Below, piece after piece: positions 1 through 39,411 of a DNA stretch of 44,275 bases (positions are counted from its first letter, which is position 1; every line of letters begins with the position of its first letter). This DNA comes from Promethearchaeota archaeon (GTDB taxonomy: Archaea; Asgardarchaeota; Hermodarchaeia; Hermodarchaeales; Hermodarchaeaceae): positions 1-44,275 of the forward strand of contig JBHLMG010000021.1 of assembly GCA_048938385.1 (NCBI GenBank). Reading direction: 5' to 3'. Both the position numbers and the translations under genes were made by a program. Under the pieces are notes generated by a model, which made no database searches, was not told the DNA's origin, and was given only the letters and a program-made list of their open reading frames with translations.

Positions 1-510
1 AACTTTCCCTCACGGTACTAGTGCACTATCGGTCTTGGGACGTATTTAGGGTTGGGAATCGATGCTTCCCAGCTTCCCACGGGATTTCCGACCCATGGTA
101 CTCAGGGACTCCAGCCCAAGCCTGTTGTGTTACGCCTACGGGGCTATCACCCTCTATGGCGAAACTTCCCAGGATCCTTCGGCTTCGACAACGAGGCAGC
201 GGCCGGGCCCTGCAACACCACATCTCCGCGTGGTTTCTCACACGGATTCAGTTTGCCCTTTTCCCTTTTCGCTCGCCGTTACTCAGGGAATCTCATTTGA
301 TTTCTTTTCCAGCCCCTACTAAGATGTTTCAGTTCGGGGCGTTCCCACTCCTCGAAAGGAGCGGCGCACATTATTAGCGTACGCCAGGAAGTCCTATTCG
401 GCGATCTGCGGATAAGGCTACATGCACCACCCCGCAGCTTATCGCAGCTTGTCACGGCCTTCGTCGGCGCCCAAGCCTAGTCATCCACCAAGTGGCGTTG
501 TTGTGTTGGC
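1..510 (-). rRNA. rrl: 23S rRNA, 5' portion (runs off the window start)
   Basis: Reverse complement reads ...GCCACUUGGUGGAUGACUAGGCUUGGGCGCCGACGAAGGCCGUGACAAGCUGCGAUAAGC..., the archaeal 23S 5' end, and ends in GACCGAUAGUGCACUAGUACCGUGAGGGAAAGUU, conserved domain I. The 5' boundary is approximate. Confidence 0.97.
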
Positions 511-678
511 ACTACTTGGAACCCACACTGATTCTGACTGGCGTTATCCAGGGTATGCGACCTATGCATAGCCATCATCGTGAAGACCAAGGAGAGGACG
601 GGTCCTCCTAGGCTCGACACCCATATGCACGGCACATGGGCTGAAAGTGTTGGTAAAAAGGAGGGACGCACATTGAGC

Positions 679-5244: not shown

Positions 5245-5638
5245 TGTGGCCCAGAGATGAAGGACGGCTGCCGGTAGTTCCCTCGGGAACAGCTGAGGAA
5301 GCTCCAACCTCCCATTAGGCAGCGGTACGGCGCGAGTCGTAGAATGAGAATTCTGCTCTGGGAACAGCAACGACACGACCAATGTTGATATGACGATGAT
5401 GCAGTCGAGGGTTATCCTTAACCCGAGCAACATGTTGGTGACAATATGTTTGATAACCTGCTGAGGACAGCGTTGGAACCGATGAAACGGCCTATCACCG
5501 TGGGAGCAAGCCCAAATAGGTCGCTAATGAGGCGCCTTCTGAAGCGACGGGTAGGGTGCTTAGCTAGATGCCGTCAAGCCGCTCGAGGCAACTTGTGTGG
5601 CTGAACAAAAGATGGGCTACTCTTATCACTGGGCCACA
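5245..5638 (+). ncRNA. rnpB: RNase P RNA (archaeal, likely type A)
   Basis: P1 TGTGGCCCAG/CTGGGCCACA; CR-I GAGGAAGCTCC; CR-V AACAAAAGATGGGCTACT; P8-like TACGGC-GCGA-GTCGTA and P9-like GAAT-GAGA-ATTC hairpins; K-turn-like GATGA../CTGA pairs; followed by a T-tract. Confidence 0.93.
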
Positions 5639-8469: not shown

Positions 8470-8609
8470 GGGCTCGTAGCTTAGCTAGTCACACTCGGAC
8501 TTCCGTTGTGGGTAAGGTTAGAGCATCGGGCTTTTAAGGAGGCGTATGAGACGAAGTGCCCTCCAAAGAAACCCGAGGGTCGCGGGTTCAAGTCCCGCCG
8601 AGCCCGCCA
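8470..8609 (+). tRNA. tRNA-Lys(UUU) with two introns (D-loop ~8489-8516; canonical 37/38 at 8537-8570), CCA encoded
   Basis: Acceptor GGGCTCG/CGAGCCC, anticodon stem TCGGG/CCCGA with CT-TTT-AA, T arm GCGGG-TTCAAGT-CCCGC. The 37/38 BHB is perfect (CTTT/AAAG); the D-loop BHB is relaxed. Confidence 0.93.
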
Positions 8610-8653: not shown

Positions 8654-8786
8654 TGGTGCAGGGGACGGGATTTGAACCCGCGCAGGCCTACGCCACTGGG
8701 ACCTGAACCCAGCCCGTGTAGTCCCTGAAATGGTCCAAAATAAAAGGGAGCCCAGTTCAGGTTTGACCAAACTCCGGCACCCCTGC
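8654..8786 (-). tRNA. tRNA-Leu(CAG) with 45-nt intron at ~21/22 (8718-8762), CCA encoded
   Basis: GCAGGGG/CCCCTGC acceptor, CTGGG-TTCAGGT-CCCAG anticodon arm, long variable arm; BHB central helix GGTC/GACT and intron helix CCTGAA/TTCAGG. Confidence 0.93.
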
Positions 8787-37494: not shown

Positions 37495-38313
37495 ATGCAT
37501 TTGGAACTCATAAGAAACGAGCCTGCTGTTCTTCTTCGTGGTAGTCGGCGTAAGGTTCTCATTGTTGCTGATTTGCATATAGGATATGAGCGAACACTGG
37601 TTCAACAAGAAAATTATTCGAGCAAGATAACAGAACAGGTTCTCCAACACCTGGATGGCATTGTGGAGCGCGTAAAACCTACCGAAATCATCATATTAGG
37701 CGATTTGAAGCACACGATTCGTACCTTTTCGAAGCAAGAGTTCCGAAGTATAGCATTAGGCTTAGCTCGGCTTCAACAACGGGCAACTCTAACTGTAGTC
37801 CGTGGAAATCATGATGCCGATCTTGAGTTAGTTGTTCCGGATGGTGCAGCAATCATTCCATCATCAGGATTTAAACTGAGCTTTGGTAAGCATCGTATCT
37901 ACCTTTTACATGGTCATGCCCAACCCACTGAAGAAATTCTATCATGCCAGCATTTGCTCATGGCACATGTTCATCCAGTAATAACCACTACCACTCTAAA
38001 AGGGCGAAAATCTAAACACCGCGTCTGGGTAAAAACTGGATGGCAGCCAACCGTTATTGAAGCATTTACTCAGTGGTTTGGTAATCGAGTAGTGGAAAAA
38101 CACCCAGAAACCATCTCAAGTGTGCTTGATATGAAAATACTTGTAATCCCCGCATTTCTTGATTTATTACATGGACATGTTCTCAATAACTCAGCTTCGA
38201 AACGGTTTCAAGGAAACCCCATATACCGTCATTTAAATTTAAACCAAGCAGAGATCGTGATGCTCGATCACACCTACCTTGGTACAGTTCAGCAACTTCA
38301 TGAAACAGAATAA
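37495..38313 (+). CDS. Lhr-associated metallophosphoesterase (MPE/PdeM-like)
   Basis: ADLHIG, LGDLKH, RGNHD, HGH, HVHP, IPAF. Confidence 0.9.
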   Translation: MHLELIRNEPAVLLRGSRRKVLIVADLHIGYERTLVQQENYSSKITEQVLQHLDGIVERVKPTEIIILGDLKHTIRTFSKQEFRSIALGLARLQQRATLTVVRGNHDADLELVVPDGAAIIPSSGFKLSFGKHRIYLLHGHAQPTEEILSCQHLLMAHVHPVITTTTLKGRKSKHRVWVKTGWQPTVIEAFTQWFGNRVVEKHPETISSVLDMKILVIPAFLDLLHGHVLNNSASKRFQGNPIYRHLNLNQAEIVMLDHTYLGTVQQLHETE

Positions 38314-38360
38314 AGGCTAAGGAAAATATTTAACTCCAATTTACTTTATCCTGCATCGCT

Positions 38361-38530
38361 GGGCCGGTGGTCTAGCTTGGTATAGGCAAGAAGACTGCTT
38401 TCTTCAGACCGCTAACGATTCGCGGTTCGGGACCATGAAAGCTCAAATCTTCATGGCGAGATTCCGTGAGATCTGGGGTTCAAAGCCAGATGGGAACTTC
38501 CATCTGGAGAAACTCCCCATCGGCCCACCA
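38361..38530 (+). tRNA. tRNA-Pro(CGG) with three introns (22/23: 38384-38416; 37/38: 38432-38462; 59/60: 38485-38513), CCA encoded
   Basis: Removing the three BHB-flanked segments gives GGGCCGGTGGTCTAGCTTGGTATGATTCGCGGTTCGGGTCCGTGAGATCTGGGGTTCAAATCCCCATCGGCCCACCA, a complete cloverleaf; a T-tract follows. Confidence 0.92.
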
Positions 38531-38622
38531 TTTTCATTGTTTTTTGCTCGTAACCCAAGTTTTAATTTCGGCAATCCCCGTAATTTTGGTGAATTTGCGT
38601 AAAGCACTTAAAGAATAGTTGG

Positions 38623-39411
38623 ATGCGTGTAGCTATGCCTGTCTCAGCGCAGGTCAGACAGCGTCTTGCAAGACGAATCGCAGGGGAGATATCGCTATCG
38701 GATAACCCGGGGCGTGTTATGCGAAAATGGCGAGAAATGTTTCATATCCCTCAAATCCAATTAGCAGAGAATTTCGTACCAATTGACGAAAAAACCCCCA
38801 CCCCCGGCGTATCACCCTCAGTAATTAGTGACTATGAAAGTGGACGCCGTCAATCACCTGGAACAAAAACTATCAAACGCTTCGTTGAAACCATAATCGC
38901 TTTAGATGAACAAAATGGCGGACAGATCATTAATGCTTTCCAGCGACTGATGGGTGTAGAGATCCCTACTAACATCATTATTGATGTTAGCGAATTCGCT
39001 CAAGGAATAACAGCAAAAGAGTTTCTTGAAACACTTCGAGGGCAGGTGGTGGCCTGTGAAGAGCTACTCAATCGTGAAATTCTTGGCTATTTGGCTATTG
39101 ATACAGCAGAGGCACTTGATGGTCTTTCTAGTAATGGATTTCTGAAATTATTTGAGGCTTCCACGGATCGCGCTTTGGTTCTTATCAATGCATCAACCGG
39201 TCGATCCCCATTAGTCGCAGCAAAAGGTGATGTTAAACCAAGTCTTTTTGTACTACATGGAGTAGAACAAATCGACTATTTAGCAATCGAACTTGCAGAA
39301 CGCGAGCGTTTTCCGCTAGCAATCTCTCGACCAGAATCAGTGGAAAACATGTTAAGGCGATTACAAACCCTACGAAAACATACAGTGACAGAAACCCAAG
39401 GAAGAAAGTGA
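38623..39411 (+). CDS. Archaeal HTH (XRE-like) transcriptional regulator, COG1709-like
   Basis: RIAGEISLSDNPG..RKWREMF, GVSPSVISDYESGRR.SPG, STGRSPLVA. Confidence 0.88.
   Translation: MRVAMPVSAQVRQRLARRIAGEISLSDNPGRVMRKWREMFHIPQIQLAENFVPIDEKTPTPGVSPSVISDYESGRRQSPGTKTIKRFVETIIALDEQNGGQIINAFQRLMGVEIPTNIIIDVSEFAQGITAKEFLETLRGQVVACEELLNREILGYLAIDTAEALDGLSSNGFLKLFEASTDRALVLINASTGRSPLVAAKGDVKPSLFVLHGVEQIDYLAIELAERERFPLAISRPESVENMLRRLQTLRKHTVTETQGRK

What the first reader, a model, noticed from the sequence alone, without database searches (positions are those of the whole stretch)
38361..38530. tRNA-Pro(CGG) interrupted by three BHB introns (22/23, 37/38, 59/60)
Seen: 33-, 31- and 29-nt inserts, each with an intron hairpin and a 4-nt central helix (TGGT/GCTA, TTCG/CGAG, TTCA/AGAA with one A-A) flanked by 3-nt bulges. 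Splicing yields a clean cloverleaf. Established: triple-intron tRNAs are rare, best known from Thermoproteales, and need a relaxed-specificity splicing endonuclease. Standard tRNA scanners often miss or miscall them. Finding one in a probable Asgard genome bears on the evolution of eukaryotic TSEN.
Basis: partly seen in the sequence, partly recalled or inferred. Interest (0 to 1): 0.7.

Follow-up and report, generated by a model that had tools for sequence, protein, structure and literature searches.

The report
Three-intron tRNA-Pro gene in Hermodarchaeum
This is a real proline tRNA gene of an Asgard archaeon (genus Hermodarchaeum) broken by three short introns that fold into the shape the archaeal splicing enzyme cuts; such heavily interrupted tRNA genes have already been described in other Asgard lineages, so it is a well-supported new example, not a new kind of thing.

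Summary
Window 38361-38530 (+) is a tRNA-Pro(CGG) gene with introns of 33, 31 and 29 nt at positions 22/23, 37/38 and 59/60. Each intron has a 4-bp central helix, two 3-nt bulges and an intron hairpin. Splicing gives a 77-nt canonical tRNA that is colinear with an intron-less orthologue at the same locus in a sister-genus genome. ARAGORN and the Rfam tRNA model both miss the gene.

Fourteen congeneric genomes carry the orthologue. Their spliced products are nearly identical, while the introns have diverged with compensatory changes (19 pairs changed on both sides; 94.6% of cells paired against 38-50% when the pairing is slid). Twelve of the 14 carry a fourth intron in the D-loop.

Record titles place the genome in Candidatus Hermodarchaeum (Asgard). 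It encodes a catalytic EndA alpha subunit with a crenarchaeal-type specificity loop, a beta subunit lacking the catalytic histidine, and RtcB. No RNA data were available, so splicing is inferred.

Multi-intron tRNA genes in Asgard archaea, with up to five introns per gene, are already published (2024 paper, 2026 preprint). This is a new member of a known kind, of moderate interest.

The parts
38321..38334 (+). Putative archaeal promoter: purine-rich BRE-like stretch plus TATA-like box (ATATTTAA at 38326-38333), about 31 nt upstream of the mature 5' end
   Evidence: The same element (GAAAcATTTTAAG type) lies at the same distance in all 14 congeners. Its function is inferred.
38361..38383 (+). 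Exon 1: acceptor 5' strand, U8, G9, D-stem 5' strand, D-loop, position 22 (23 nt, includes 17a)
   Evidence: Colinear with the intron-less orthologue L056.
38384..38416 (+). Intron 1, 33 nt, position 22/23. H is TGGT (38378-38381) with GCTA (38411-38414); bulges ATA and ACG; the intron helix is GG/CC plus a 5-bp stem
   Evidence: H is paired in 15 of 15 orthologues, with G-U to G-C and U-G to U-A changes. The inner helices have changes on both sides (helices 4-6).
38417..38431 (+). Exon 2: positions 23-37, with anticodon CGG at 38428-38430 and G37 at 38431
   Evidence: Invariant in all 15 orthologues.
38432..38462 (+). Intron 2, 31 nt, canonical position 37/38. H is TTCG (positions 32-35) with CGAG; bulges GGA and ATT; 7-bp intron hairpin; full hBHBh' motif
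   Evidence: (helices 8, 9). It is the top-scoring BHB candidate in the gene. T38 is confirmed by intron-less L056.
38463..38484 (+). Exon 3: positions 38-59 (anticodon stem 3' strand, variable loop, T-stem 5' strand, T-loop TTCAAA)
38485..38513 (+). Intron 3, 29 nt, position 59/60 in the T-loop. H is TTCA (positions 54-57) with AGAA (3 pairs plus A-A); bulges AAG and ACT; 9-bp intron hairpin; the outer helix is the T-stem
   Evidence: (helices 11, 12; 6 of 8 hairpin pairs changed on both sides).
38514..38530 (+). Exon 4: position 60, T-stem 3' strand, acceptor 3' strand, discriminator A73, encoded CCA
   Evidence: All 22 other detected tRNA genes of the genome also encode CCA.
38531..38546 (+). 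T-runs (TTTT at 38531-38534, TTTTTT at 38541-38546), the likely transcription stop
   Evidence: Read directly from the sequence. Function is inferred from the known oligo-T termination of archaeal RNA polymerase.

Best explanation
Window 38361-38530 (+) is the functional, single-copy tRNA-Pro(CGG) gene of a Candidatus Hermodarchaeum genome (Asgard archaea). It is transcribed as a precursor of about 170-180 nt from a conserved TATA/BRE-type promoter.

In the precursor, each of the three inserts forms a bulge-helix-bulge motif with the adjoining exon nucleotides. In each case four nucleotides of the D-loop, anticodon loop or T-loop pair with the four nucleotides just before the last two of the intron. 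The genome's heterotetrameric (alpha-beta)2 EndA cuts after the second nucleotide of each 3-nt bulge. Its catalytic subunit carries a crenarchaeal-type specificity loop. RtcB joins the four exons into a canonical 77-nt tRNA that already carries CCA.

The gene structure, the motif, its conservation and the presence of the enzymes are shown. Transcription, cleavage and ligation are inferred.

History at this locus: the 22/23 and 59/60 introns are present in all 15 genomes of the genus and absent from the 4 sister-genus genomes. The 37/38 intron and a D-loop intron (17/17a) are shared patchily with the sister genus. This genome lacks the D-loop intron that 12 of 14 congeners have, most simply by loss.
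For: - **Motif and cloverleaf:**
- **Motif-free junction check:** the G016 orthologue (L056) at the syntenic locus has no introns. It is colinear with the predicted mature RNA, including GGTAT|GATTC, G37|T38 and TTCAAA|TCCCC.
- **Selection:** the 15 spliced products are all 77 nt and occur in only four variants, differing at positions 4, 7, 16 and the pair 49:65 (a compensatory change). The introns differ widely.
- **Covariation:** RNAalifold predicts the intron hairpins, two of the H helices and the tRNA stems unaided, with 18 pairs changed on both sides. On my explicit BHB structure 94.6% of cells pair, against 38-50% when the pairing is slid. Nineteen pairs have double changes and 0 of 500 shuffles reach these values.
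- **Bulges:** the third nucleotide of each 3' bulge, which is exonic (G23, T38, T60), is invariant, while the two intronic bulge nucleotides vary.
- **Strain variation:** in a roughly 96%-identical strain seen in two other studies, all five differences within the gene lie in introns.
- **Promoter:** the element is conserved in 15 of 15 genomes.
- **Enzymes:** the EndA alpha subunit (186 aa) has Tyr/His/Lys. It is closest to the A. pernix alpha subunit 3p1z_B (E 6e-46) and has K41 and K43 aligned to K44 and R46 of the specificity loop. The EndA beta subunit has Ala in place of the catalytic His. RtcB is present.
- **Single copy:** no second tRNA-Pro(CGG) was found.
Against: No RNA evidence of any kind was available. 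Intron 1 has a weak motif: two G-U pairs in H, almost no exon-exon helix, and an interrupted intron helix. The single-sequence minimum-free-energy fold pairs that region differently. tRNA-Pro(UGG) is present and intron-less and could read CCG by wobble, so the gene is not strictly required for decoding. The assembly is 89.8% complete, so a second copy cannot be fully excluded.
Confidence: 0.9

Rival explanations
1. A decaying tRNA pseudogene: the inserts are junk insertions that are not removed, and decoding of CCG is left to tRNA-Pro(UGG).
For: An intron-less tRNA-Pro(UGG) exists at G000 C23:185660-185736. There are no RNA data. Standard scanners do not recognise the gene.
Against: The exons are almost invariant across 15 species while the inserts diverge. 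Helices are maintained by compensatory changes. The promoter is conserved. The one exon stem change is compensatory (49:65). No other tRNA-Pro(CGG) copy was found.
Confidence: 0.03
2. The gene is functional, but the D-arm insert (22/23) is handled differently from a standard BHB intron. It could be cut at shifted sites through a relaxed HBh' motif, or only after another intron has been removed (ordered splicing).
For: It has the weakest motif of the three. The minimum-free-energy fold of the whole precursor does not form its H helix. The 2026 preprint finds that D-arm insertions form canonical motifs least often.
Against: H is 4 of 4 paired in all 15 orthologues. The boundaries given by the BHB rule are exactly those required by the intron-less orthologue, and no shift gives the same product. 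A CSL-type EndA cuts D-loop BHB introns in vitro in A. pernix (PMC3241643).
Confidence: 0.06
3. Assembly artefact: the inserts come from chimeric or misassembled metagenome contigs.
For: The genome is a metagenome-assembled draft of 51 contigs.
Against: Contigs from independent runs carry the same gene. One X4 record covers 38317-38700 with no differences. X5 and X6, from two other studies, carry a roughly 96% variant with the same architecture. Fourteen other species have the same introns at the same sites.
Confidence: 0.01

Closest known systems
Multi-intron tRNA genes of Asgard archaea (Atabeyarchaeia and Freyarchaeia, Valentin-Alvarado et al. 2024, PMC11291895; census preprint 10.64898/2026.10.13.758758)
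   Same: Same phylum. Several short introns per tRNA gene (medians of about 22-23 nt there). Noncanonical D-arm and T-arm positions in addition to 37/38. BHB boundaries. D-arm introns overlooked by standard software. A two-paralogue EndA. Repeated lineage-specific gains and losses.
   Different: A different class, Hermodarchaeia, which the main text of those papers does not mention in connection with tRNA introns. The overall burden here is lower, about 1 intron per gene in my partial census, against 2.2 in their focal families.
Three-intron tRNA genes of Thermoproteales, e.g. Pyrobaculum islandicum tRNA-Pro(UGG) with introns at 25/26, 37/38 and 56/57 (Sugahara et al. 2007, as cited in PMC4090602)
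   Same: A proline tRNA with one canonical and two noncanonical BHB introns, one in the D-arm and one in the T-arm. It depends on an (alpha-beta)2 EndA with the crenarchaeal specificity loop. Positions 22/23 and 59/60 are on the list of known noncanonical sites.
   Different: A different phylum, a different isoacceptor and different exact positions. I found no sign here of near-identical introns shared between tRNA genes: only one 11-nt match among 36 introns. That kind of sharing was the evidence for intron transposition in Thermoproteales.
Aeropyrum pernix (alpha-beta)2 EndA with the Crenarchaea-specific loop (PDB 3P1Z; PMC3241643)
   Same: The catalytic subunit of this genome aligns end to end (E 6e-46). 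It keeps Tyr/His/Lys and both basic loop residues. A second paralogue lacks the catalytic His.
   Different: Here the beta subunit is closer in sequence to the M. jannaschii homotetramer subunit (E 2e-21) than to A. pernix beta (E 1e-5). Neither activity nor assembly was tested.

Membership tests
Archaeal BHB (EndA-dependent) tRNA intron | [quoted passage not shown] | tested here: met
   All three introns meet it. H is 4/4 (two G-U), 4/4 and 3/4 paired, with bulges of exactly 3 nt. The same holds in 15 orthologues.
Archaeal BHB (EndA-dependent) tRNA intron | Flanking helices h (exon-exon) and h' (within the intron) | tested here: met
   h' is present in all three and covaries (helices 5, 6, 9, 12). 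h is the anticodon stem for intron 2 and the T-stem for intron 3. For intron 1, h is nearly absent, so that intron is of the relaxed HBh' type.
Archaeal BHB (EndA-dependent) tRNA intron | Removal at the bulge sites restores a canonical tRNA | tested here: met
   ARAGORN calls the 77-mer tRNA-Pro(cgg). It is colinear with the intron-less orthologue L056.
Archaeal BHB (EndA-dependent) tRNA intron | The intron is actually excised and the exons ligated in the cell | not testable with these tools
   No RNA run holds the locus.
tRNA-Pro(CGG) | Anticodon CGG at positions 34-36 in a 7-nt loop with U33 and G37; 7/4/5/5-bp stems; conserved G18 G19 and T54 T55 C56 | tested here: met
   Cloverleaf. The same anticodon arm is found in all orthologues.
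(alpha-beta)2 broad-specificity EndA | Two distinct paralogues, one catalytic (Tyr, His, Lys) and one structural | tested here: met
   Two loci, each with the N-terminal and catalytic domains. Alpha keeps the triad. Beta has Ala at the His position.
(alpha-beta)2 broad-specificity EndA | Specificity loop with the conserved Lys (A. pernix K44) in the catalytic subunit | tested here: met
   An ungapped alignment across the loop puts K41 at K44 and K43 at R46. The role of K44 is taken from PMC3241643.
(alpha-beta)2 broad-specificity EndA | Heterotetramer assembly and cleavage of noncanonical introns | not tested
   No complex prediction or assay was run.

The most novel reading that the evidence does not exclude
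The Hermodarchaeaceae tRNA-Pro(CGG) locus is a natural series of 0, 1, 1, 3 and 4 introns at one syntenic gene. It dates two noncanonical gains (22/23 and 59/60) to the stem of one genus and shows repeated loss of a D-loop intron. In the four-intron congeners the two D-arm motifs are interlocked. The last bulge nucleotide of the D-loop intron is the first paired nucleotide of the 22/23 central helix, and the outer helix of the first competes with the central helix of the second. The two introns would therefore have to be removed in a fixed order. If true, this would be a case of obligatorily ordered splicing within one archaeal pre-tRNA.
Probability: 0.3. Interest if true: 0.5.

Novelty: new member of a known kind. 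Interest (0 to 1): 0.4.

Why it matters
It adds a well-documented case, from a class of Asgard archaea not highlighted so far, to the recent finding that Asgard tRNA genes are heavily interrupted.

The comparative support is unusually clean. An intron-less orthologue fixes all six splice sites without using the motif. Fifteen species show invariant exons alongside covarying introns.

The locus varies from zero to four introns within one family. That makes it a compact system for asking how tRNA introns are gained and lost, and what the Asgard EndA can cut.

It is also a practical warning. ARAGORN and the Rfam model miss this gene and many others in this genome, so tRNA complements of such genomes are under-annotated. 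It does not by itself change the picture of how eukaryotic TSEN evolved.

Tried and rejected
- **Wrong first split:** my first naive split, with exon 1 of 22 nt, gave a tRNA with T37 and a poorer D-stem. It was corrected by applying the bulge rule and counting 17a.
- **BHB ranking by energy:** ranking candidates by hairpin energy failed because long segments dominate. I replaced it with a modular cloverleaf parser.
- **Parser limits:** the parser mis-registers some four-intron orthologues and failed on one. For the relatives I defined introns by exon anchors instead. Two of its genome-wide calls, at C5:25180 and C35:23852, conflict with ARAGORN's own reading, so the census is approximate and incomplete.
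- **RNA evidence:** no RNA holder was listed for the locus. Only DNA contigs could be laid.
- **Intron similarity within the genome:** there was only one 11-nt match among 36 introns, so no support for recent transposition between tRNA genes.
- **How the D-loop intron was lost:** deletion between the CTAG repeats and precise cDNA-type loss each need one extra substitution to give the observed AGCTTGG. This is left undecided.
- **Alternative register for the relatives' D-loop intron:** a TAGA/TCTA central helix was rejected because its fourth pair is absent in half of the species. It would also give variable mature D-loops, whereas CTAG/CTAG is invariant and gives the sister genus's D-loop.
- **Supplements:** the supplementary tables of the 2026 preprint are not held, so I could not check whether Hermodarchaeia genomes are in its panel.

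Full report
**What is there.** The stretch 38361-38530 lies between two ORFs that end at 38313 and start at 38623. Neither ARAGORN nor the Rfam tRNA model reports a gene there. I read it with the archaeal bulge-helix-bulge rule: a 4-bp central helix H, a 3-nt bulge 3' of each H strand, and cleavage after the second bulge nucleotide. This divides the stretch into four exons (38361-38383, 38417-38431, 38463-38484, 38514-38530) and three introns (38384-38416, 33 nt; 38432-38462, 31 nt; 38485-38513, 29 nt).

The joined exons give a 77-nt tRNA-Pro(CGG). It has a 7-bp acceptor stem, G10-U25, G18 G19, U33, G37, a TTCAAAT T-loop, discriminator A and an encoded CCA. With nucleotide 17a counted, the intron positions are 22/23, 37/38 and 59/60.

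**Is it more than chance?** I wrote a cloverleaf parser that allows jumps wherever a relaxed BHB is possible. For this gene its best solution is exactly the three-intron one. I then ran it on all 234 places in the genome where a 7-bp acceptor stem brackets 60-340 nt and is followed by N-CCA. It gave 34 solutions scoring 20 or more, and ARAGORN accepts every one as a full-length tRNA. It also gave 13 low-scoring parses (below 12), none of which ARAGORN accepts. The precursor folds more stably than shuffles (z = -4.4), although the single-sequence fold does not form the central helix of intron 1.

**Relatives.** All 14 genomes of the same genus hold an orthologue between the same two flanking genes. 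Record titles of identical loci name them Hermodarchaeota, including Candidatus Hermodarchaeum yapensis.

I split each orthologue at conserved exon anchors. All 15 spliced products are 77 nt and fall into four variants. They differ only at positions 4, 7 and 16 and at the pair 49:65, which changes U-A to C-G. The introns are far more diverged.

RNAalifold, given no hint, predicts the intron hairpins, the central helices of introns 1 and 2 and the tRNA stems, with 18 pairs changed on both sides. On my explicit structure 94.6% of cells pair, against 38-50% when the 3' partners are slid by 1-3 columns. Nineteen pairs have double changes, and none of 500 shuffles reaches these values. The exonic third nucleotide of each 3' bulge (G23, U38, U60) never varies, while the two intronic bulge nucleotides do.

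**A motif-free check of the junctions.** I followed the downstream neighbour gene through 150 genomes of the phylum and parsed the DNA beside it. In the sister genus one genome (G016, L056) has an intron-less tRNA-Pro(CGG) at this locus. It is colinear with the predicted mature RNA across all three junctions, including U38. Another sister-genus genome (G015) has only a D-loop intron, and two (G017, G018) have only the 37/38 intron. Other Asgard families carry a single D-loop intron at about 15/16 or 16/17. One carries introns near 22 and 39 in tRNA-Pro(UGG).

**Evolution of the locus.** Twelve of the 14 congeners have a fourth intron of 29-30 nt in the D-loop, after GGTCTAGAT. Its central helix is the palindrome CTAG paired with an intronic CTAG. 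The intron of G015 in the sister genus sits at the same site and looks similar. In this genome tRNA-Pro(GGG) and tRNA-Val(UAC) have introns of the same design.

On a tree of the two flanking proteins this genome branches first in the genus (support 87/90). The other two three-intron genomes (G008, G001) are nested among four-intron ones (99/99), so at least one loss is required. Because the D-loop intron is also in the sister genus, loss in this genome is the simpler reading, but this is an inference.

The 22/23 and 59/60 introns are in 15 of 15 genomes of the genus and 0 of 4 of the sister genus. That points to gain on the stem of the genus.

**Machinery.** The genome has two EndA paralogues, each with both Pfam domains.
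- **Alpha subunit (186 aa):** it aligns end to end with the A. pernix catalytic subunit (3p1z_B, E 6e-46). It keeps Tyr, His and Lys, and it has Lys and Lys where A. pernix has K44 and R46 in the Crenarchaea-specific loop. That loop, and K44 in particular, confers cleavage of D-loop and relaxed motifs (PMC3241643).
- **Beta subunit (204 aa):** it has Ala at the catalytic His position.
- **Ligase:** RtcB is present.

This is the (alpha-beta)2 architecture that the 2026 preprint reports for 44 of 60 Asgard genomes. Assembly and activity were not tested.

**Expression signals.** A purine-rich stretch plus a TATA-like box lies about 31 nt upstream of the mature 5' end in all 15 genomes of the genus. 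T-runs follow the CCA. No RNA run holds the locus. DNA contigs of other runs confirm the gene. In a roughly 96%-identical strain from two other studies, all five differences inside the gene fall in introns.

**Context in this genome.** In my partial census, 10 tRNA genes have no intron, 13 have one, 10 have two, and only this gene has three, about one intron per gene. D-arm sites near 22-24 and T-loop sites near 59/60 recur in several tRNAs. The census misses some genes that ARAGORN finds and probably others, so these counts are lower bounds.

**Comparison with what is known.** Positions 22/23 and 59/60 and three-intron tRNA genes are classical in Thermoproteales, for example P. islandicum tRNA-Pro(UGG) (PMC4090602). 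In Asgard archaea, 92-95% of tRNA genes of Atabeyarchaeia and Freyarchaeia carry introns and over half carry several (PMC11291895). A 2026 preprint reports up to five per gene, frequent D-arm introns missed by tRNAscan-SE, BHB enrichment and many lineage-specific gains. I found no paper in the library that describes tRNA introns in Hermodarchaeia.

**Verdict.** It is a new member of a known kind.

Noticed in passing
L002-L004, L006-L008, L010-L015 (e.g. L003:1501-1699:-): Twelve of 14 congeneric genomes carry a four-intron version of the same gene. The extra 29-30-nt intron is in the D-loop (17/17a), and its central helix is exon CTAG paired with intron CTAG. Its 3' bulge shares one nucleotide with the central helix of the 22/23 intron.
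   Followed up: yes
L056 (G016, minus strand, about 874-950); L055:1216-1321; L057, L058: At the same syntenic locus in the sister genus, the gene has no intron (G016), only the D-loop intron (G015) or only the 37/38 intron (G017, G018). One family therefore spans 0 to 4 introns at this locus.
   Followed up: yes
window 8470-8609 (+): tRNA-Lys(UUU) with two introns (8489-8516 in the D-loop, 8537-8570 near 37/38). Default ARAGORN misses it; with the intron option ARAGORN miscalls it as Leu(gag). It scores below the Rfam threshold.
   Followed up: partly
window 8654-8786 (-): tRNA-Leu(CAG) with one 45-nt noncanonical intron in the D-arm (8718-8762). ARAGORN and Rfam do not report it.
   Followed up: partly
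window 1-512 (-) and 5252-5631 (+): The 5' end of the archaeal 23S rRNA, cut by the contig end, and a complete archaeal RNase P RNA.
   Followed up: no
G000 C23:189153-191854: The gene for the non-catalytic EndA beta subunit (190407-190892, minus strand) sits inside a cluster of six tRNA genes. Five of them are interrupted (Met, Arg-CCU, Tyr, Asp and others).
   Followed up: no
G000 C22:80551-80726 (+): tRNA-Trp(CCA) has a 68-nt 37/38 intron containing C-box-like (GATGA) and D-box-like (CTGA) motifs. This recalls the box C/D guide RNA in the tRNA-Trp intron of other archaea. It also has a 31-nt 59/60 intron.
   Followed up: no
window 38347-38356: A second conserved upstream block (GTATCCTGCA type, -14 to -5 from the mature 5' end) is present in nearly all 15 genomes of the genus. 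It may be the initiator or leader region.
   Followed up: no
window 38399, 38437, 38442, 38446, 38486: A roughly 96%-identical strain in runs from two other studies differs from the window at five places inside the gene. All five are in introns, and the change at 38486 turns a C-G pair into U-G.
   Followed up: partly
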